Below the pieces are notes generated by a model. That model saw only the letters and a list, made by a program, of their open reading frames with translations, had not been told where the DNA came from and did not search any database. Position numbers and translations under genes: made by a program. From positions 1,541,288-1,605,287 of the forward strand of contig NZ_CP115607.1 of assembly GCF_027797205.1 (NCBI RefSeq): a stretch of 64,000 nt of DNA, given 5' to 3'. The stretch comes from Campylobacter sp. VBCF_01 NA2 (GTDB lineage Bacteria > Campylobacterota > Campylobacteria > Campylobacterales > Campylobacteraceae). Shown in pieces: positions 9,022-45,609 of the stretch (positions within the stretch are counted from its first letter, which is position 1; each line of letters starts with the position of its first letter).

Positions 9022-11538
9022 ATGAAAAGACGAAGTTTCTTAAAAGGCAGCGTCGCTCTGGGTGCTGCTAGCGCAATTCCAAATTTTGCCCTTGGGGCAG
9101 AGGCAAATACCGCTTTGGTTAAAAACGGCGAAGTTCTCACTGCGGCGCACTGGGGAATTTTAAAAGCTACCGTAAAAGACGGCAAAATCGTAAAATCACA
9201 GGCTTGGAAAAAAACTTCAAATGTGCCAAATCCTTTGCAAACAGCCATGGACGATTTGGTTTATAAAGCAAGAATCAAAGCCCCAATGGTTCGCAAAAGC
9301 TACCTTGAAAACCCAGATAGCCCAAAACCTGAGCTTCGTGGCAAGGACGAGTGGGTCGAAGTGCCTTATGAAGAGGCTATCAAACTTGTCGCAAGAGAAC
9401 TTAAAAAAACACGCGAACAAAAGGGTATGAATAGCATTTGTGCAGGAAGCTACGCTTGGCAAAGCTCAGGCGCACTTGGCATGGCAAGAACACTTCTTCA
9501 TAGATTTATGAATATGACAGGTGGTTTTGTGGGCGTTACCGGGGATTTTTCAACCGGAGCTGCGCAAGTGATTTTACCGCATGTCGTGGGATCTAGCCAA
9601 GTCTATGAGCAACAAACCGTTTGGCCTGTGGTTTTAGAAAACTCAAAAGTCGTTGTGCTTTGGGGTATGAATCCAATCGGCACTTTGCGTTTGTCATTTA
9701 CGGTTTCTGATGAAGGCTCGTTTAAATATTTTGAAAAATTGCGCGATAGCGGTAAAGAAATCATTATAATTGACCCGCTCAAAACAATCACAACTAAATT
9801 TTTCGAAGGCAAAGCTACTCATATCAGACCTACTCCAAATACCGATGTCGCGATGATGTTAGCTATGGCAAATCACCTACTAAAATCAGGTAAATATGAT
9901 AAAGAATTTTTAAGCACTTACACCGTTGGCTTTGATAAATTTGAGCAGTATTTACTAGGCAAAGAAGACGGCGTAGAAAAAACACCTGAGTGGGCAGAGA
10001 AAATTTGCGGAATCGAAGCAAAAGTTATAAAAGAATTAGCCGAAAAATTCTTTGATAATCGCACTATGATTATGGCTGGTTGGGGTATGCAAAGAGCGCA
10101 CCACGGCGAACAAGTGCATTGGATGATAGTAACTCTTGCTAGTATGCTTGGTCAAATCGGGCTTCCTGGTGGTGGATTTGGTTTTAGCTACCACTATGCA
10201 AACGGCGGAACTCCAAGTTGCGTTGGTGGCGTGATTAAAACAATCAACGCAGGAAGCGTAGGCGTTATCAAAGACGGCAAATATATGGGTCCTGCTAATG
10301 CTGATGGGGCAAAAGAAAATGCAGCGCAATCTTGGCTATCTAATACTGCTTTGATGTCATATCCTGTCGCAAGAAACGCGGACGCTTTGCTAAATCCGGG
10401 TGCCACACTTGATGATAACGGAAATAAAATCACATATCCTGATATGGATTTTATCTACTGGGTCGGCGGAAATCCGCTCACACAACAACAAGACACAAAC
10501 AAAAATGTCAAGGCTTGGCGAAAACCACGAACTATCGTCGTAAATGAAATTTACTGGACACCGACAGCAAAAATGGCTGACATCGTTTTCCCTGTAACTA
10601 GTTCTTATGAAAGAAACGATATTTCTATGACAGGGGACTATACAAATATGCATATCGTCCCACAAAAACAGGTCGTAGAAAAACAATTTGGCGCAAAAGA
10701 TGATTATCAAGTTTTCGTTGATTTGTGTAAAGCTTATGCGGACGGACTTGCAGAAGCCTACACAGAAGGCGGCAAAACCGAAATGGACTGGATAAAAGAG
10801 TTCTATGAAACAGCGGCAAATCAAGTAAATGCAAACGAAGCTTTGGGAATAAAAATGCCAAGTTTTGAAGAGTGGTGGAACAAAAACGAACCGACTGAAT
10901 TTTTCCCTACAATGGAGAGCGAAAGCTATGTAACTTTTGCAGATTTTAGAGAAGATCCGATTTTAAATGCACTTGGCACACCAAGCGGACTAATCGAAAT
11001 TTACTCTGAAACTATCGAAAAAATGGGCTATGATGACTGCAAGGCTCACCCGACATGGTTTGAGCCAATCGAGTGGCTAGGTATGAAGGATAAACCAGCC
11101 AGATTCCACATGATAAGCCCACACCCAAATGATCGCTTACACTCACAACAAAACCAAACTAAGCTAAGAGATAGCTATGCAGTAGCTGGAAGAGAGCCGA
11201 TTTTCATCAACGAAGAAGACGCAAAAGAGCTAGGTATAAAGGGCGGCGATTTGGTAAGAGTTTTCAACGCTAGGGGTCAAATTTTAGCAGGTGCGGTTGT
11301 AAATGATGACACGCCAAGAAATGTCGTAAAACTATGCGAAGGTGCTTGGTATGATCCAAACGAAAACGGACTTTGCAAAAACGGCTCGGCAAATGTGCTT
11401 ACTATCGATATTCCGACAAGCAAACTAGCTAACGGAAATATCTCTCACACTTGCCTTGTAAATATCGAGCCTTATAAACCAAAAGACGGCGAAGACATTA
11501 CGCTAACTGCGTTTATGCCGCCAAAAGGCGCGAAATAA
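9022..11538 (+). CDS. torA: Tat-exported molybdopterin oxidoreductase, TMAO/DMSO/biotin-sulfoxide reductase family (TorA/BisC-like)
   Basis: Twin-arginine signal (KRRSFLKGS) at the ATG at 9022 (RBS aaggagaaaag). About 838 aa. The six-frame ORF start at 8950 is an over-extension. An inverted-repeat terminator follows the stop. Confidence 0.85.
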   Translation: MKRRSFLKGSVALGAASAIPNFALGAEANTALVKNGEVLTAAHWGILKATVKDGKIVKSQAWKKTSNVPNPLQTAMDDLVYKARIKAPMVRKSYLENPDSPKPELRGKDEWVEVPYEEAIKLVARELKKTREQKGMNSICAGSYAWQSSGALGMARTLLHRFMNMTGGFVGVTGDFSTGAAQVILPHVVGSSQVYEQQTVWPVVLENSKVVVLWGMNPIGTLRLSFTVSDEGSFKYFEKLRDSGKEIIIIDPLKTITTKFFEGKATHIRPTPNTDVAMMLAMANHLLKSGKYDKEFLSTYTVGFDKFEQYLLGKEDGVEKTPEWAEKICGIEAKVIKELAEKFFDNRTMIMAGWGMQRAHHGEQVHWMIVTLASMLGQIGLPGGGFGFSYHYANGGTPSCVGGVIKTINAGSVGVIKDGKYMGPANADGAKENAAQSWLSNTALMSYPVARNADALLNPGATLDDNGNKITYPDMDFIYWVGGNPLTQQQDTNKNVKAWRKPRTIVVNEIYWTPTAKMADIVFPVTSSYERNDISMTGDYTNMHIVPQKQVVEKQFGAKDDYQVFVDLCKAYADGLAEAYTEGGKTEMDWIKEFYETAANQVNANEALGIKMPSFEEWWNKNEPTEFFPTMESESYVTFADFREDPILNALGTPSGLIEIYSETIEKMGYDDCKAHPTWFEPIEWLGMKDKPARFHMISPHPNDRLHSQQNQTKLRDSYAVAGREPIFINEEDAKELGIKGGDLVRVFNARGQILAGAVVNDDTPRNVVKLCEGAWYDPNENGLCKNGSANVLTIDIPTSKLANGNISHTCLVNIEPYKPKDGEDITLTAFMPPKGAK

Positions 11539-11540
11539 GC

Positions 11541-11580
11541 AAAATTTGGCTAGGATTTTCTAGCCAAATTTTAAAATTCT
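11541..11580 (+). terminator. Rho-independent terminator-like hairpin after the torA-like gene
   Basis: aaaatttggctag-gatttt-ctagccaaatttt followed by an A/T run. Confidence 0.6.
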
Positions 11581-11599
11581 ACAAAATTTTGCAAATTTC

Positions 11600-11645
11600 A
11601 AAATTCCGCTATCGCAAATTTGAAATACTGCCCCGAAATTTTGCT
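11600..11645. repeat. Dispersed intergenic repeat family B, copy 2
   Basis: aaaattccgctatcgcaaatttgaaatactgccccgaaatttt. A partial related segment follows at 11686-11712 (acttcgcaagcttataata). Confidence 0.8.
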
Positions 11646-11761
11646 TTTTAAAATCCAACGAAATTTCTACGAATTCCTCAATTTACAAAGTTACTTCGCA
11701 AGCTTATAATAAATCAATACAAAATTTTGCACCACATAATCAAAATTTCAACCCATTTTAA

Positions 11762-11774
11762 GGGGGGGGGGGGG
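11762..11774 (+). repeat. Homopolymeric G13 tract immediately upstream of a TAGAAT -10-like hexamer (candidate phase-variable promoter)
   Basis: Sequence ttaaGGGGGGGGGGGGGtagaata. Lies 37 bp upstream of the ATG of the 11811 ORF. Confidence 0.9.
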
Positions 11775-11810
11775 TAGAATAAAACTTTATTTTTTTTCAA
11801 GGAGAAAACT

Positions 11811-12098
11811 ATGGATGAAGAGCTACACTTAGACTGCCCATTTTGTGGCAAGGACGACATCAAATACGGAGTATCAGTTTGCAGTGGTTGCCAAGCTGAG
11901 ATTAGATATGGTGTATCGTGGGCTCCAACTTTAATTTTGGGTGTAATATTGTTTATCGTAGGTGCTGCTATGGGTAGCGCTATTGGTGGCCTTGTTTGTA
12001 TCGGTGGATTGGTCGGTATCGTCATAGGTGCATATAGATTTTTACAAAATTTAAGCTATAAAAAAGGTCCTAAATTTTTCAGACGAGAATTTCGTTAA
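11811..12098 (+). CDS. Small membrane protein with N-terminal zinc-ribbon (CPFCG...CSGC) and glycine-zipper TM
   Basis: RBS aaggagaaaact. Has a CxxC...CxxC motif and a GxxxG-rich hydrophobic segment. Lies downstream of a G13 tract. Confidence 0.55.
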   Translation: MDEELHLDCPFCGKDDIKYGVSVCSGCQAEIRYGVSWAPTLILGVILFIVGAAMGSAIGGLVCIGGLVGIVIGAYRFLQNLSYKKGPKFFRREFR

Positions 12099-12105
12099 TT
12101 CTATG

Positions 12106-12145
12106 TTTATTTGTAGGTATCCAAACCTACAAATAATCGTTTATG
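12106..12145 (+). terminator. Hairpin terminator-like structure after the small zinc-ribbon ORF
   Basis: tttatttgtaggt-atccaa-acctacaaataa followed by tcgttta. Confidence 0.5.
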
Positions 12146-12163
12146 TGATATTAGAGGTTCAAT

Positions 12164-12511
12164 ATGGCTTATTATGACATGTGGGGAAATCGGTATGAAA
12201 AAGTTAGCAGTGGTGGAGGCATTCTTGGATTACTTCTCATAGTTGGTTTTATATGGCTTGTTTCAGGCGATAACACACCCTCTAATACACCGACAGATAA
12301 CAAGGTTATCAAAAGTATAAATCTAAGCAATAGAGAAAAAACCATGCAAATCCAGCGAATTCTTATCAAAAACGGCTATAAACTCAAAGCCGATGGCGTT
12401 TTTGGGAAAAAGACAATCAGCGCTGCAAAGAAATTTACAGGGCTAAATTCTGCGGATTTAAACACACTTTATATTGCTGTTAAAAATAAAGCAGACGGCA
12501 AAAAGAATTAA
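12164..12511 (+). CDS. Membrane-anchored peptidoglycan-binding-domain protein
   Basis: N-terminal TM segment and a C-terminal PG_binding_1-like motif (IQRILIKNGYKLKADGVFGKKTISAAKKF). Confidence 0.6.
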   Translation: MAYYDMWGNRYEKVSSGGGILGLLLIVGFIWLVSGDNTPSNTPTDNKVIKSINLSNREKTMQIQRILIKNGYKLKADGVFGKKTISAAKKFTGLNSADLNTLYIAVKNKADGKKN

Positions 12512-12520
12512 TATAATATC

Positions 12521-12584
12521 ATAGGGTGGGCATTTTGCCCACCATAAGGTTGCCGAATTTTCGGTGCAAAACGCCCACCCTACA
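12521..12584. repeat. Dispersed palindromic repeat family A, copy 2 (long hairpin: atagggtgggcattttgcccaccat ... gcccaccctac)
   Basis: The internal gtgggcattttgcccac is a perfect palindrome. The outer tagggtgggc/gcccaccctac arms pair. Located between convergent/tandem genes. Confidence 0.75.
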
Positions 12585-12607
12585 ACACTTCTAACCAAAG
12601 GATGGAT

Positions 12608-13471
12608 ATGAAAAATTTATTTTCATTTATGTTGGCTAGTGCGCTGTGCGCGGTGCTAGCAGGATGTGGTGGCGACGATAGCCAGTCTAGTGCAAATGCT
12701 GGGGGCGAGACCGAGAAACCAGCGCAAGAAGTCGCTCAAAAACCAATCGAGAGATCGGTAGAAAAGCCAAAAGACCCAGCGCTTGAAAAAGCAGAAAAAG
12801 AGGTCGAGGCGATGAGTTTGAAGGATTTTGTCGTTTTGTTCGAAAACGATGGTTGCTTTAAGGTAGATACGAACCAAACCGCCAAACTCGCTTGTGAAGG
12901 CAAATTTGAACCATATGCAAAGGAACTTTATAGTTCACAAAGCAGTCTTAAAAATGGTGCAGATAATGTACTATATTTATATTATGAGTTGGATTTTATA
13001 AATGATTATTTTAAAAAAAATAAAAAGCTAGGCTCTGTTTCGGATATGCTGGCTAGTAAGTCAAATATATCAGATATTAACAAAAACATATGGCGAAGGG
13101 CTGGTGTTATATTTATTAATGGGTATGGTAAGTATCTAATCATACGAGATAGTGATATCGATGTTGAAAATTCTACAATTACGCTTTCTGAAATGGACCA
13201 AGATATATACGATAAAGTTGATAAAATAAGTAAAGACTTGGGAGACACATATTTCATCACTTCAGATCATTATTTCTCTAATTTTCACAACAAAAAGCTT
13301 GCTCGCGAGGCCGAATTAAAGGATATATACCGAGAGTTAGCCTATGAAAAAGGCGAGCTAAAAGGTGCGGTTTTTGAGATAAAAGATGGTAAATATGTAG
13401 TTAAATTTCCACTTGCAGATGCGATGAAGGCAAATATTAAAAAAGCAAGGCAAATATTAAAAAAGCTATGA
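12608..13471 (+). CDS. Hypothetical lipoprotein
   Basis: Lipobox LAGCGG. RBS aaagga. No recognisable domain. AT-richer than the core. Confidence 0.55.
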   Translation: MKNLFSFMLASALCAVLAGCGGDDSQSSANAGGETEKPAQEVAQKPIERSVEKPKDPALEKAEKEVEAMSLKDFVVLFENDGCFKVDTNQTAKLACEGKFEPYAKELYSSQSSLKNGADNVLYLYYELDFINDYFKKNKKLGSVSDMLASKSNISDINKNIWRRAGVIFINGYGKYLIIRDSDIDVENSTITLSEMDQDIYDKVDKISKDLGDTYFITSDHYFSNFHNKKLAREAELKDIYRELAYEKGELKGAVFEIKDGKYVVKFPLADAMKANIKKARQILKKL

Positions 13472-13632
13472 AAAGGTGAGCACTAGTAAAATAGCTCATA
13501 TAAATTTCACTTTGCAAGCCGTGGTTTAAACTGCGGTTTGCAACTCGTAATAGAAATTTTAAATTTCAAATTGCTTTTATAAATTTTTGAAATTTAAAAT
13601 TTCAACCAAAAGCTATTTTGTGTTGCAGTTTC

Positions 13633-13676
13633 GTAGGGTGGGCATCCTTGCCCGCCCTAAATTAAAATTTTGCCCA
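13633..13676. repeat. Dispersed palindromic repeat family A, copy 3
   Basis: cgtagggtgggcatccttgcccgccctaaattaaaattttgccc. Confidence 0.75.
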
Positions 13677-13792
13677 TATCTTAAAATTTGAAATTTCAGA
13701 CGCAGTATCTACAAAGCAAAATTTAACGAGAGTAAAATTTAAAGAAAAGCAAAATTTGGAAAAATCCAAATTTTGCTAGGAATTTAAAAAGA

Positions 13793-14290
13793 TTAAGGCA
13801 CGAAAATATTCCCACCGGCGCGCGGATTTAGCGGATCGTCGCCGTATTTGTTAGCTCCGTCGGTGCCTTTTAAAATCGTAGAGATAAAAATAAAAATTAT
13901 AAGCCCCACAGCAACAAATAAAAACAGCATAGCCAAAATTCTAATTCCATCAGCAAACATTATCCCAAGCACGCATAAAAGAAAAATTGCGCCAAAATAC
14001 CACCCGCTGATATCTCTATCATGCAGTCTTCTCCACAAAACCGCAAATGATGGCACAAGCAAGCCCAAAGCAACCACGCTAGCTACGATTCCTATGACCT
14101 CTGGGTTGCCGTTTTTGTCAAAGCCCAAAACGATATTTGTGCCAAGCACAGCGTCGATTACGGAGGTTGCGACATTTACTAAAACGCTAAAAAGGTAAAA
14201 CCACCAATATTCGCTTCTGCTAGCCCTGCCAGAAAATGTGGCGTATTTTTGTTTGAGGCAAACGCTAATCGCCTCGCCAAAACTCATCAT
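13793..14290 (-). CDS. DUF805-family inner membrane protein
   Basis: SGRASRSEYWWFYLF motif characteristic of DUF805 (YhaH-like), with several TM helices. Confidence 0.7.
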   Translation of the reverse strand: MMSFGEAISVCLKQKYATFSGRASRSEYWWFYLFSVLVNVATSVIDAVLGTNIVLGFDKNGNPEVIGIVASVVALGLLVPSFAVLWRRLHDRDISGWYFGAIFLLCVLGIMFADGIRILAMLFLFVAVGLIIFIFISTILKGTDGANKYGDDPLNPRAGGNIFVP

Positions 14291-36887: not shown

Positions 36888-37695
36888 AGAAAAACGATTT
36901 ATAAACATTGTCGAGTAGGAAGTATTTTTTATCAATCGTGCCCTTGTAAAACGGCTCAAAGGTCTCGTTATAGGCTTTTGTGAAAAATCCCTCTTTGCTC
37001 AGAGCGATGATTTGCTCGTTTAAAAATTCAAGCAAACTTGTGTTACCTTTTTGGATTGCGATTGATAGAAAAACGGTGTTGCCAAGGTTTGAGAGTTTGA
37101 CCTCCATTGTGGGGTCAAAAATCGGATAAGCATAGACAAAAAGGTTGTTATTGACATAGCCGTCAAGTTCGCCATTTTTGACTTTTTTATAGCAATCGAC
37201 GCTGTCGTTGCAATAAGTGATAGGAATCCCCTCTTTATTCAAAAATGCTTCGCCTGTGGTTTTAAGCAATGCGCCGATTTTTTTGCCTTTTAAATCCAAG
37301 ACAGACTTGATGTCGCTACCTTTTCTGGTGAGAAGACCCAAATTTACAGTAAAATACGGAGCCGTGAAGTCGGCTAAATGGGCGCGCTCTGGCGTTACAG
37401 ACACAGCGGCAACTATCATATCAGCTTTATTTTCTTGTAAAAGCGGAAAACGCACATCGTTGGTAACGCCCATGAGGCTTATGTGACCTTGTTTCTCGCC
37501 AAAAATCCTTTTTGCCAAAATTTCGGCAAGCTCGACCTCAAATCCCTCGAATTTACCATTGACAAGCTCGCCAAATGGCGGTTCAGCGTCATACACGCCG
37601 ATACGGATTTCACCTCGCGCTCTAATCTCATCGAGCGAATACGAAAATGCGCTTGTCGCAAGGACAGCCAATGCCAAAAGAAACTTTTTCATGGT
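36886..37695 (-). CDS. Amino-acid ABC transporter periplasmic substrate-binding protein (family 3, PEB1-like)
   Basis: Signal peptide MKKFLLALAVLATSAFS and an SBP_bac_3-type fold (GIDVELA/ASVTPERA-like motifs). The longer ORF to 37749 is probably an over-extension. Confidence 0.75.
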   Translation of the reverse strand, partial: TMKKFLLALAVLATSAFSYSLDEIRARGEIRIGVYDAEPPFGELVNGKFEGFEVELAEILAKRIFGEKQGHISLMGVTNDVRFPLLQENKADMIVAAVSVTPERAHLADFTAPYFTVNLGLLTRKGSDIKSVLDLKGKKIGALLKTTGEAFLNKEGIPITYCNDSVDCYKKVKNGELDGYVNNNLFVYAYPIFDPTMEVKLSNLGNTVFLSIAIQKGNTSLLEFLNEQIIALSKEGFFTKAYNETFEPFYKGTIDKKYFLLDNVYKSFF

Positions 37696-37757
37696 ATTTC
37701 CTTTTTGTAGTTTTGCGCAAATCTGCGCCTGGCAAATTGAAATTTGCAACTTTTGCG

Positions 37758-37765
37758 GGGGGGGA
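37758..37765 (-). repeat. Homopolymeric C8 tract (on coding strand) about 60 bp upstream of the substrate-binding-protein gene
   Basis: Plus strand gcGGGGGGGGattt. Lies in the leader/promoter region of the minus-strand SBP gene. Confidence 0.8.
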
Positions 37766-44972: not shown

Positions 44973-45107
44973 AACAAAAGAGATATAAAAATATTGCTTC
45001 AATAAATTCTGTATTTATTACAAATTCCTAAATTTGATAAACTGATTGGTATTATGAAAAAACGGTAGCTAAACCAGCTAAAATTTGCAAATTTAAGCAA
45101 ATTTTAG

Positions 45108-45120
45108 GGGGGGGGGGGGT
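45108..45120 (+). repeat. Homopolymeric G13 tract immediately upstream of a TAGAAT -10-like hexamer (second copy of the same promoter architecture)
   Basis: Sequence tttaGGGGGGGGGGGGGtagaata. Lies 52 bp upstream of the ATG of the 45172 lipoprotein gene. Confidence 0.9.
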
Positions 45121-45171
45121 AGAATACGGAAATTGAATTGTGTCAAATAATTTTATTAAAAAGGATTTTCT

Positions 45172-45609
45172 ATGAAAAAATCATATTTTATTTATGGAGC
45201 AGTCTTATCTTTTGTTTTGGTTGGTTGTAATTATACTCCGCCACCGAAACACTCAGACATATATTTAAATGATGAAGCTAAAAGCGTTTTACTTAGCGAA
45301 GGAACTATGGTAAATTGTCGTGTATTAGGACAGGTTGAAGGTAAAGATGAAAGATATAAAGGAGAATATCCGCCTGCGATTTACACGCAACTTGATGAAA
45401 ATGCAAAAAATGATTTGAGAAACAATGCTTCTGTGTATAATAAACAAGATAGATTGATAAGCGTTAGAATTTTAAATAAAGAAATTCATTGCTTTGACCC
45501 AAGACTTGGCTGGACAAATTGCAGTAGCGCATATATGAAAGCATACCCTAATAGTGCAGTAAAATATGTAAAATATAAAGGTGAAATTTTAGATTGTGGT
45601 GAAAGATAA
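45172..45609 (+). CDS. Hypothetical lipoprotein (145 aa)
   Basis: Lipobox LVGCNY. RBS aaaaaggatttt. Lies downstream of a G13 tract. AT-rich. Confidence 0.55.
   Translation: MKKSYFIYGAVLSFVLVGCNYTPPPKHSDIYLNDEAKSVLLSEGTMVNCRVLGQVEGKDERYKGEYPPAIYTQLDENAKNDLRNNASVYNKQDRLISVRILNKEIHCFDPRLGWTNCSSAYMKAYPNSAVKYVKYKGEILDCGER

What the first reader, a model, noticed from the sequence alone, without database searches (positions are those of the whole stretch)
11756..11815. G13 homopolymer fused to a TAGAAT -10-like box upstream of a small zinc-ribbon membrane protein gene: candidate slipped-strand promoter switch
The sequence ttttaaGGGGGGGGGGGGGtagaataaaac places a 13-nt poly-G run directly 5' of a TAGAAT hexamer, about 30 nt before the RBS/ATG at 11811. 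A homopolymer in the promoter spacer is the classic mechanism by which tract length changes -35/-10 spacing and tunes or switches expression, as with Neisseria porA and opc and Haemophilus fimbriae. Campylobacter is known for poly-G/C phase variation, though mostly intragenic. The downstream genes (a 95-aa CxxC membrane peptide, a peptidoglycan-binding protein and a lipoprotein) are surface or envelope proteins, which fits a phase-variable locus.
Basis: seen in the sequence. Interest (0 to 1): 0.65.

Follow-up and report, generated by a model that had tools for sequence, protein, structure and literature searches.

The report
Variable poly-G tract inside a promoter
A run of 13 G's sits directly against the promoter's -10 box of a small membrane-protein gene in a Campylobacter genome, and its length differs (7 to 15) between close relatives while everything around it stays the same, so it is very probably one of the known "slippery repeat" switches that randomly tune a gene's expression.

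Summary
G13 lies at 11762-11774 and abuts TAGAAT (11775-11780), 30 nt before the RBS/ATG of a 95-aa zinc-ribbon membrane protein. It is not chance: about 0.0002 such runs are expected in 64 kb. The window's only other G13 (45107-45119) also abuts TAGAAT, upstream of a lipoprotein gene.

In eight orthologous sequences the 270-nt intergenic region is about 98-100% identical. Its only length difference is the tract: G7, G10 (x3), G13, G14 (x2), G15. The -10-to-ATG distance never changes. Distant homologues without a G tract carry TATAAT at the same distance from the ATG, which supports TAGAAT as the real -10 box.

The same Gn-TAGAAT layout recurs upstream of small envelope-protein genes in other Campylobacter and Helicobacter genomes. 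In many other phyla a TTGACA box lies 8-9 nt upstream of such tracts.

The most likely reading is a slipped-strand, tract-length-dependent sigma-70 promoter. This is a new member of a known kind: intergenic poly-G contingency loci of Campylobacterota. The effect on transcription and the ON length are inferred, not shown.

Only the 95-aa gene is securely under this promoter. The PG-binding and lipoprotein genes are missing from three relatives.

The parts
11762..11774 (+). Poly-G tract (G13), the hypermutable simple sequence repeat. It occupies about -13 to -25 relative to the predicted start.
   Evidence: Length is 7/10/10/10/13/14/14/15 in eight orthologous sequences, and it is the only indel.
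11775..11780 (+). -10 box TAGAAT (TATAAT in the G7 and G10 alleles).
   Evidence: It lies 30 nt before the ATG in all eight sequences. Distant homologues have TATAAT 29 nt before the ATG. TAnAAT hexamers in this window peak 20-39 nt before start codons.
11755..11761 (+). A/T block ATTTTAA flanking the tract on the 5' side. It is a candidate upstream promoter contact (periodic A/T element), lying at about -26 to -32 when the tract is G13.
   Evidence: The same AAATTTTA flank occurs at locus 2. Ordinary promoters in the window have A/T blocks at -16..-20 and -25..-31 with about 10-nt periodicity.
11747..11752 (+). Weak -35-like hexamer TTCAAC, 9 nt upstream of the tract. The spacer to the -10 is 22 nt at G13 and 16 nt at G7.
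   Evidence: A TTnAnC hexamer lies 8-12 nt upstream of the tract in 8 of 12 independent Campylobacterota Gn-TAGAAT sites. TTGACA lies at the same offset in other phyla.
11785..11789 (+). Predicted transcription start region, 5-9 nt after the -10 box. Inferred, not mapped.
   Evidence: Inference from sigma-70 promoter geometry. No RNA data are available.
11799..11804 (+). Ribosome-binding site AAGGAG.
   Evidence: Conserved in all orthologues and in distant homologues.
11811..12098 (+). Regulated gene. The 95-aa protein has an N-terminal C4 zinc ribbon (C9, C12, C24, C27), a hydrophobic hairpin at about residues 37-76 and a basic C-terminal tail. It belongs to no known family.
11961..12015 (+). 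Hypervariable cassette inside the gene (membrane hairpin and turn), with indels and dN above dS.
12107..12136 (+). Terminator-like hairpin that closes the one-gene unit. It is conserved in relatives whose downstream genes differ.
11682..11710 (+). Alternative upstream promoter-like site, TTTACA-17-TATAAT. If it is the one used, the tract would lie in a roughly 95-nt leader.
   Evidence: 11 of 12 matches. Conserved in the orthologues aligned.
45107..45125 (+). Second copy of the same design: G13 (45107-45119) followed by TAGAAT (45120-45125). TTAAGC lies at 45093-45098, 8 nt upstream of the tract.
   Evidence: The tract is G14 in L005 and G13 in L140, and the L141 contig begins exactly at TAGAAT.
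45172..45609 (+). 145-aa lipoprotein gene downstream of the second tract.
   Evidence: (weak DUF4156 hit).

Best explanation
The G13 run is a hypermutable simple sequence repeat built into the core sigma-70 promoter of a one-gene unit that encodes a 95-aa zinc-ribbon membrane protein.

The tract fills the DNA directly upstream of the -10 box TAGAAT, at about -13 to -25. It therefore always supplies the G at -14 that is typical of the Campylobacter extended -10. It separates the -10 from the upstream contacts: an A/T block (ATTTTAA) and a weak -35-like TTCAAC.

Slipped-strand mispairing during replication adds or removes G's. Each change shifts those upstream contacts by 1 bp (about 34 degrees of helical rotation) relative to the -10. 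RNA polymerase binding, and so transcription of the gene, then varies stochastically and heritably between cells, either as on/off or as graded output.

Shown: the tract exists, it is far beyond chance, it is the only length-variable site among orthologues, and it lies against a hexamer that behaves as the -10 box in comparisons.

Inferred: that length changes alter transcription, and which lengths are ON. Two sub-models make opposite predictions. If spacing to the -35-like TTCAAC matters, the optimum is G7-G8 (a 16-17 bp spacer). If helical phasing of the A/T block matters, the optimum is about G12-G14, one turn beyond the usual 3-nt gap.
For: 1. Tract, hexamer, RBS and ATG geometry are as described.
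2. Eight orthologous sequences are about 98-100% identical over the intergenic region. The only indel is the tract: G7 (L144), G10 (L002, L142, L143), G13 (window), G14 (L001, L003), G15 (L004). The 30-nt distance from the -10 to the ATG is constant.
3. The hexamer is TAGAAT or the consensus TATAAT, so variation stays within TAnAAT.
4. Homologues at 40-47% identity in human-oral Campylobacter have no G tract. They do have TATAAT 29 nt before the ATG, only about 50 nt after the rpsR terminator.
5. The second G13 in the window has the same flanks, AAATTTTA-G13-TAGAATA. It also varies (G13/G14). In L140 homology upstream stops 18 nt before the tract, which delimits a compact promoter module.
6. 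In a truncated scan of species genomes, 13 of 120 G>=10-TAKAAT loci are Campylobacter or Helicobacter, and all 13 are TAGAAT (Fisher p=2e-5). Most lie 26-46 nt before RBS+ATG of small membrane, lipoprotein or secreted proteins.
7. In other phyla, 52 of 116 such sites have TTGACA (at least 5 of 6) at 3-10 nt upstream of the tract. Background is about 0.7 per offset. This shows that tracts abutting a -10 generally lie in promoter spacers.
8. TAnAAT hexamers in this window cluster 20-39 nt before start codons. G is enriched at -14, and there is a 10-nt periodic A/T signal. This matches the published C. jejuni promoter model (PMC3656092).
9. Promoter-associated G13-G16 tracts with within-culture length heterogeneity are documented in Helicobacter canadensis (PMC2823697). 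Intergenic tracts occur in 20% of Campylobacter phase-variable gene groups (PMC6321876).
Against: No transcription start site, expression data or read-level heterogeneity is available for this genome.

A better sigma-70 consensus match, TTTACA-17-TATAAT, lies 65 nt upstream and is equally conserved.

No canonical -35 is present at any observed tract length. Ordinary promoters in the window show no TTnAnC at 16-18 bp, so the upstream contact is uncertain.

A one-base difference between assemblies (G13 against G14) could be a homopolymer sequencing error. The G7, G10 and G15 alleles are harder to explain that way.

The TTnAnC motif was defined after looking at the data.
Confidence: 0.7

Rival explanations
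1. The gene is transcribed from the upstream TTTACA-17-TATAAT site (11682-11710), and the G tract lies in a roughly 95-nt 5' leader. Length changes would then act, if at all, through the RNA (polymerase slippage, leader structure or processing), or would be neutral.
For: This site is the best consensus match in the region, 11 of 12. It is fully conserved in the orthologues aligned. 5'-UTR-dependent SSR phase variation exists in Haemophilus influenzae (PMC12721329 abstract).
Against: The predicted leader folds no better than shuffled sequence (z = -0.48), and there is no Rfam match. Campylobacter promoters rely on an extended -10 and not on a -35 (PMC3656092). Distant homologues and locus 2 relatives keep the -10 next to the tract position but not an upstream promoter. 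The whole intergenic region is conserved, so conservation of this site is not specific to it.
Confidence: 0.15
2. The tract is a structural or protein-binding element, such as a G-quadruplex on the non-template strand or rigid G:C DNA that excludes nucleoid proteins. Its regulatory effect would then not depend on slippage.
For: A tract of G11 or more can in principle form a two-tetrad quadruplex, and G15 a three-tetrad one (general knowledge, not tested here). Tract lengths at promoter sites in this clade and in H. canadensis cluster at 13-16 (PMC2823697).
Against: G7 and G10 alleles exist at the same site. Length is the only thing that varies, which is the signature of slippage. No test of structure formation was possible.
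Confidence: 0.07
3. The tract is inside a longer coding sequence and acts by frameshifting (translational phase variation).
For: In TATAAT alleles with G7 or G10, an ORF from an upstream TTG runs through the tract in frame. One gene caller reported a 121-aa product, P0031.
Against: In TAGAAT alleles the TAG of the hexamer is an in-frame stop 36 nt before the ATG. The upstream TTG has no RBS, whereas AAGGAG plus ATG is conserved down to distant homologues whose proteins start at the same place.
Confidence: 0.03
4. The length differences are homopolymer sequencing or assembly errors, and the tract is stable.
For: The window and L001/L005 differ by exactly +1 at both loci. Poly-G breaks assemblies, as seen where the L141 contig ends at the tract.
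Against: Lengths range from 7 to 15 across independent projects, and they co-vary with a point difference in the hexamer. Two independent assemblies agree on G10. The neighbouring T8 run shows no length variation.
Confidence: 0.03

Closest known systems
Promoter-associated poly-G tracts of Helicobacter canadensis (Snyder et al. 2010, PMC2823697)
   Same: Same phylum. Long G tracts (G13-G16, with ranges of G10-G20 in reads) lie in predicted promoters of hypothetical, IgA-protease-like and VacA-like genes, and they are proposed to give transcriptional phase variation.
   Different: The genes differ. Within-culture heterogeneity was shown there from reads, whereas only between-genome variation is shown here. 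The exact position relative to the -10 was not compared.
Intergenic poly-G/C contingency loci of Campylobacter (PhasomeIt, PMC6321876; review PMC8355987)
   Same: A Campylobacter genome with a G tract of 8 or more in a putative promoter region. 20% of phase-variable homology groups contain intergenic tracts.
   Different: Those loci are catalogued by distance to the nearest ORF only. No mechanism or expression effect has been tested, and a 2026 C. jejuni study explicitly set intergenic tracts aside (PMC13317227). This gene family is not named in the text I read.
Helicobacter pylori sabA T-tract 'rheostat' and other A/T tracts near promoters (Aberg et al. 2014, PMC4081817)
   Same: A promoter-proximal homopolymer in an epsilonproteobacterium. 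[quoted passage not shown] Nine H. pylori loci have tracts between -35 and -10.
   Different: The sabA tract is poly-T and lies upstream of the -35. Here the tract is poly-G and touches the -10 box.
Neisseria meningitidis porA (poly-G between -35 and -10) and opc (poly-C), Haemophilus influenzae hif (TA repeats); from general knowledge
   Same: A repeat in the promoter spacer, with tract length setting high, intermediate or no transcription.
   Different: Those promoters have recognisable -35 boxes. Here only a weak TTCAAC is present, 9 nt upstream of the tract. The host lineage is also different.

Membership tests
SSR-mediated transcriptional phase variation (promoter homopolymer) | A simple sequence repeat long enough to be hypermutable (G/C of about 8 or more in Campylobacter) | tested here: met
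   G13 at 11762-11774
SSR-mediated transcriptional phase variation (promoter homopolymer) | Repeat number differs between otherwise identical alleles | tested here: met
   Lengths of 7, 10, 13, 14 and 15 occur in eight sequences, as the only indel in a 270-nt region that is about 98-100% identical. Locus 2 shows 13/14.
SSR-mediated transcriptional phase variation (promoter homopolymer) | The repeat lies within the core promoter, between or overlapping promoter elements | tested here: inconclusive
   Comparative evidence places the -10 box directly 3' of the tract. The start site is not mapped, and an alternative upstream promoter-like site exists.
SSR-mediated transcriptional phase variation (promoter homopolymer) | Tract length changes transcript or protein level | not testable with these tools
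   Needs reporter fusions or RNA measurements.
SSR-mediated transcriptional phase variation (promoter homopolymer) | High-frequency, reversible switching within a clonal population | not testable with these tools
   Needs read pileups or fragment-length analysis of colonies.
Translational (frameshift) phase variation | The repeat lies inside the reading frame of the affected gene | tested here: not met
   There is an in-frame TAG at 11775, immediately after the tract and 36 nt before the ATG. The ORF through the tract exists only in TATAAT alleles and lacks an RBS.
sabA-type rheostat (H. pylori) | A homopolymer adjacent to and upstream of the -35 that shifts UP-like elements relative to the core promoter | tested here: not met
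   The tract lies between the -35-like position and the -10, touching the -10. It may still work in a similar way through helical phasing.
Campylobacter sigma-70 promoter (periodic A/T plus extended -10) | TAnAAT with G at -14, A/T-rich periodic upstream region, and a short leader | tested here: met
   GGGTAGAAT lies 30 nt before the ATG. The window's ordinary promoters show G at -14 (0.42) and 10-nt A/T periodicity. The model comes from PMC3656092. The usual A/T block at -16..-20 is replaced by G's.

The most novel reading that the evidence does not exclude
Gn-TAGAAT is a dedicated, conserved promoter design of Campylobacterota in which the usual 'GG' at -15/-14 of the extended -10 has been expanded by about one helical turn. 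Promoter output would then be periodic in tract length (a helical-phase rheostat with an optimum near G12-G14), and not a simple -35/-10 spacing switch. At this locus it would drive a small membrane protein whose membrane hairpin is under diversifying selection, for example as a target or immunity factor for a phage or bacteriocin.
Probability: 0.2. Interest if true: 0.6.

Novelty: new member of a known kind. Interest (0 to 1): 0.38.

Why it matters
Intergenic poly-G tracts are counted in Campylobacter phasome surveys, but how they act on the unusual promoters of this group, which lack a -35, is essentially untested. This locus and its twin at 45.1 kb give a clean natural allelic series: G7 to G15 on a nearly identical background, with a fixed -10 and leader. 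That series could be put straight into reporter constructs to decide between a spacing model and a helical-phase model. It also flags an uncharacterised small zinc-ribbon membrane protein with a hypervariable core as a probable contingency gene in a little-studied Campylobacter lineage.

Tried and rejected
- Rfam search of 11500-12200: only sub-threshold chance hits.
- RNA fold of the hypothetical long leader 11717-11830: no better than shuffles.
- Pfam, NCBIfam, PADLOC, PHROGs and PDB sequence searches of the 95-aa protein: no family. There is only weak zinc-ribbon similarity to Lar and eL43.
- Intragenic reading of the tract: rejected, because of the in-frame TAG and the lack of an RBS for the upstream TTG.
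- Sigma-54 or sigma-28 promoter: none seen by eye next to the tract. This was not formally scanned.
- More strain-level alleles: the look-up of encoding contigs collapsed 3 and 7 further contigs as 'similar places', even with 10-kb flanks, so they could not be read.
- A metagenome scan for the locus-1 flanks found nothing. A scan for the TTAAGCAAA...Gn...TAGAAT module found only two sites, one of them G13.
Taxon proportions from it are descriptive only.
- I could not confirm from the paper library my recollection that TTAAGC was proposed as a Helicobacter -35-like motif.

Full report
**Observation**

- ttttaa-G13-TAGAAT-aaaac, with the G run at 11762-11774 and the hexamer at 11775-11780.
- A T8 run at 11790-11797, AAGGAG at 11799-11804 and the ATG at 11811.

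The window is 41.4% G+C and has only three G/C runs of 7 or more. From base composition, 1.9e-4 runs of 13 G or C are expected in 64 kb. The other G13 (45107-45119) is also followed directly by TAGAAT and preceded by AAATTTTA, and it lies 46 nt before the ATG of a 145-aa lipoprotein. Two of two long tracts abutting the same hexamer has a nominal probability of about 2e-7. The feature is real and non-random.

**Organism and genes**

The 95-aa product is identical or near-identical to hypothetical proteins of unclassified Campylobacter strains such as JMF_01 NE2, JMF_02 ED1 and VBCF_06 NA8.
- It has a C4 zinc ribbon (CPFC...CSGC). The ribbon is only weakly similar to Lar and eL43 ribbons.
- It has a hydrophobic stretch of about 40 residues, long enough for a two-helix hairpin, and a basic tail.
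- It matches no Pfam, NCBIfam, PADLOC or PHROG family.

Upstream is a TorA/DMSO-type molybdoenzyme gene that ends at 11538, followed by a hairpin. Downstream are a 115-aa PG_binding_3 protein and a 289-aa lipoprotein.

**Comparison with relatives**

Eight orthologous sequences were recovered: L001-L004, L142-L144 and the window. The 223 nt between the torA stop and the tract are 98.7-100% identical in L001-L004. By comparison, torA third-codon positions are only 85-89% identical in L002-L004, and torA dS is 0.19-0.28.

The only length difference in the whole intergenic region is the tract:

| Tract | Hexamer | Sequences |
|---|---|---|
| G7 | TATAAT | L144 |
| G10 | TATAAT | L002, L142, L143 |
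| G13 | TAGAAT | window |
| G14 | TAGAAT | L001, L003 |
| G15 | TAGAAT | L004 |

The 30 nt from the hexamer to the ATG never change in length. The hexamer varies only between TAGAAT and the consensus TATAAT. At the second locus:
- The tract is G13 in the window, G14 in L005 and G13 in L140.
- In L140 similarity upstream ends 18 nt before the tract.
- A 63%-identical orthologue sits on a contig that begins exactly at TAGAAT, which is typical of an assembly break at a poly-G run.

This is the pattern expected of a slippage-prone repeat.

**Is the tract in the promoter?**

No RNA data exist, so the argument is comparative.
1. Homologues at 40-47% identity in human-oral Campylobacter lack a G tract but have TATAAT 29 nt before the ATG. 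It lies only about 50 nt after the rpsR terminator, so that hexamer is their only plausible -10.
2. In this window, TAnAAT hexamers upstream of genes cluster 20-39 nt before the ATG. G is enriched at -14, the strongest A/T block lies at -16..-20, a second lies at -25..-31, and the periodicity is about 10 nt. This matches the published C. jejuni model of a periodic A/T signal plus TGxTATAAT and no -35 box (PMC3656092).
   - Thirteen loci came from Campylobacter or Helicobacter. All 13 have TAGAAT, against 41 of 103 elsewhere (p=2e-5). Most lie 26-46 nt before RBS+ATG of small membrane, lipoprotein or secreted proteins.
   - Among all 116 scorable sites, 52 have a TTGACA match of at least 5 of 6 at 3-10 nt upstream of the tract, peaking at 8-9 nt. 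Background is about 0.7 per offset. The implied spacers are mostly 18-20 nt.

G tracts abutting a -10 box therefore generally lie in promoter spacers.

**Upstream contact and the two sub-models**

In the Campylobacterota sites no TTGACA is present. However, 8 of 12 independent sites have a TTnAnC hexamer (TTAAGC, TTCAAC or TTCAGC) 8-12 nt upstream of the tract. I defined this motif after looking at the data. Here it is TTCAAC at 11747-11752, which gives spacers of 16 nt at G7, 19 at G10 and 22-24 at G13-15.

Ordinary promoters in the window do not show this hexamer at 16-18 nt. They typically read AAATTTT-GGn-TAnAAT. The tract promoters look like that design with the GG expanded. At G13 the flanking ATTTTAA block lies at -26..-32, in register with the second periodic A/T block.

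Two sub-models follow and make opposite predictions. Spacing to a -35-like element would be optimal at G7-8. Helical phasing of the A/T block would be optimal near G12-14, as in the H. pylori sabA rheostat (PMC4081817). The data cannot decide between them. Either way, the mechanism is a change in promoter geometry caused by slippage.

**Extent of the regulated unit**

A terminator-like hairpin at 12107-12136 follows the 95-aa gene and is conserved in all relatives. The PG-binding and lipoprotein genes lie on a 1.6-kb segment (about 12176-13796). That segment is absent in L003 and L004, where only the first codons remain, and it is replaced by other genes in L002. Only the 95-aa gene is therefore securely linked to the tract.

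**Rival explanations**

- An upstream TTTACA-17-TATAAT site (11682-11710) would put the tract in a leader. That leader has no significant structure and no Rfam match. The site is not kept in distant homologues or at locus 2.
- An intragenic (frameshift) reading fails. TAG at 11775 is in frame with the ATG. The 121-aa call P0031 is an ORF extension that is possible only in TATAAT alleles and has no RBS.
- Sequencing error could explain G13 against G14. It cannot explain a range of 7-15 that co-varies with a base change and is reproduced in two assemblies.
- A quadruplex or other structural role cannot be excluded and was not tested.

**Relation to what is known**

- Intergenic G/C tracts are a recognised minority class of Campylobacter contingency loci, present in 20% of phase-variable homology groups (PMC6321876; PMC8355987).
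- Promoter-associated G13-G16 tracts with read-level heterogeneity were reported in Helicobacter canadensis (PMC2823697).
- Homopolymers between -35 and -10 are listed for nine H. pylori loci (PMC4081817).
- The porA, opc and hif paradigms are classical (general knowledge).
- A 2026 C. jejuni study left intergenic tracts out of its analysis because their effects are expected to be quantitative and context-dependent (PMC13317227). The mechanism in this genus therefore remains untested.

**Verdict**

This is a new member of a known kind. The regulated unit is the single 95-aa gene. The '-35/-10 spacing' wording may need to become 'upstream A/T element or -35-like hexamer to -10 spacing or phase'. 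Interest is moderate to low. The locus is ordinary for the biology of this group, but it offers a clean natural allelic series for a mechanistic test.

Noticed in passing
window 45107-45125 (gene 45172-45609): A second G13 is also fused to TAGAAT, with the same AAATTTTA 5' flank and TTAAGC 8 nt upstream of the tract. It lies 46 nt before a 145-aa lipoprotein gene. The tract is G14 in L005 and G13 in L140, and the L141 contig starts exactly at TAGAAT.
   Followed up: yes
window 37757-37764: A G8 run lies in the divergent intergenic region between a minus-strand solute-binding protein gene (ATG near 37692) and a plus-strand 332-aa membrane protein gene (37917). It is not followed by TAGAAT and may be another contingency tract.
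   Followed up: partly
window about 11961-12015 (inside the 95-aa gene); L002-L004 3150-3260: A hypervariable cassette with indels encodes the membrane hairpin and turn. In that region dN is 0.10-0.27 and dS is 0.015-0.20. For L002 against L004 dN is 0.23 and dS 0.015. Flanking torA has dN of about 0.01 and dS of 0.19-0.28. The promoter, zinc ribbon, C-terminal tail and terminator are nearly identical across the same genomes. This suggests diversifying selection or cassette exchange on a recently shared backbone.
   Followed up: partly
window 11539-11761 against L002-L004: The whole 223-nt intergenic region differs at only 1.3% of sites, while third-codon positions of the adjacent torA differ at 11-15%. 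It is full of (G/C)AAAATTTT(G/C)-type blocks. This indicates either strong constraint or a recent recombinational sweep.
   Followed up: partly
L006-L018 (human-oral Campylobacter homologues), about 30-45 nt before the ATG: These homologues carry a (TA)n repeat running into the -10 box, at the same place where this lineage has poly-G. One protein allele has TATATATATAAT and another has TATATATATATATATAAT. Ten contigs of the first allele showed no variation.
   Followed up: partly
L019-L138 (genome-contig scan): A stereotyped design, TTGACA - 8-9 nt - G>=10 - TATAAT/TAGAAT, is widespread in gut and rumen Firmicutes, Saccharibacteria, Treponema, Fusobacterium, Streptobacillus (two adjacent lipoprotein genes in L115), Moraxella and others. 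It is often upstream of MKK... signal-peptide or lipoprotein genes. Several MAGs contribute multiple loci, for example the 'Lapin' Bacilli bins and CAKPKR01.
   Followed up: partly
window 12176-13796: A 1.6-kb segment carries the PG_binding_3 protein (similar to endolysin cell-wall-binding domains, PHROG E=6e-6) and a 289-aa lipoprotein. It is present in the window and L001 but absent in L003 and L004, which keep only ATGGCTTATTAT of the first gene. A GC-rich inverted repeat lies at about 12519-12590 between the two genes.
   Followed up: partly
L144 1501-1866 (P0031): In TATAAT alleles the in-frame stop provided by TAGAAT is lost. Gene callers then extend the ORF through the G tract to an upstream TTG (121 aa). 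This annotation artefact could make the tract look intragenic.
   Followed up: yes
L098 (uncultured Campylobacter sp.), downstream of G13-TAGAAT: Another small membrane protein with CxxC...CxxC motifs (129 aa, membrane segments first and zinc ribbon last) sits behind the same promoter design. No sequence similarity to the 95-aa protein was detected.
   Followed up: no
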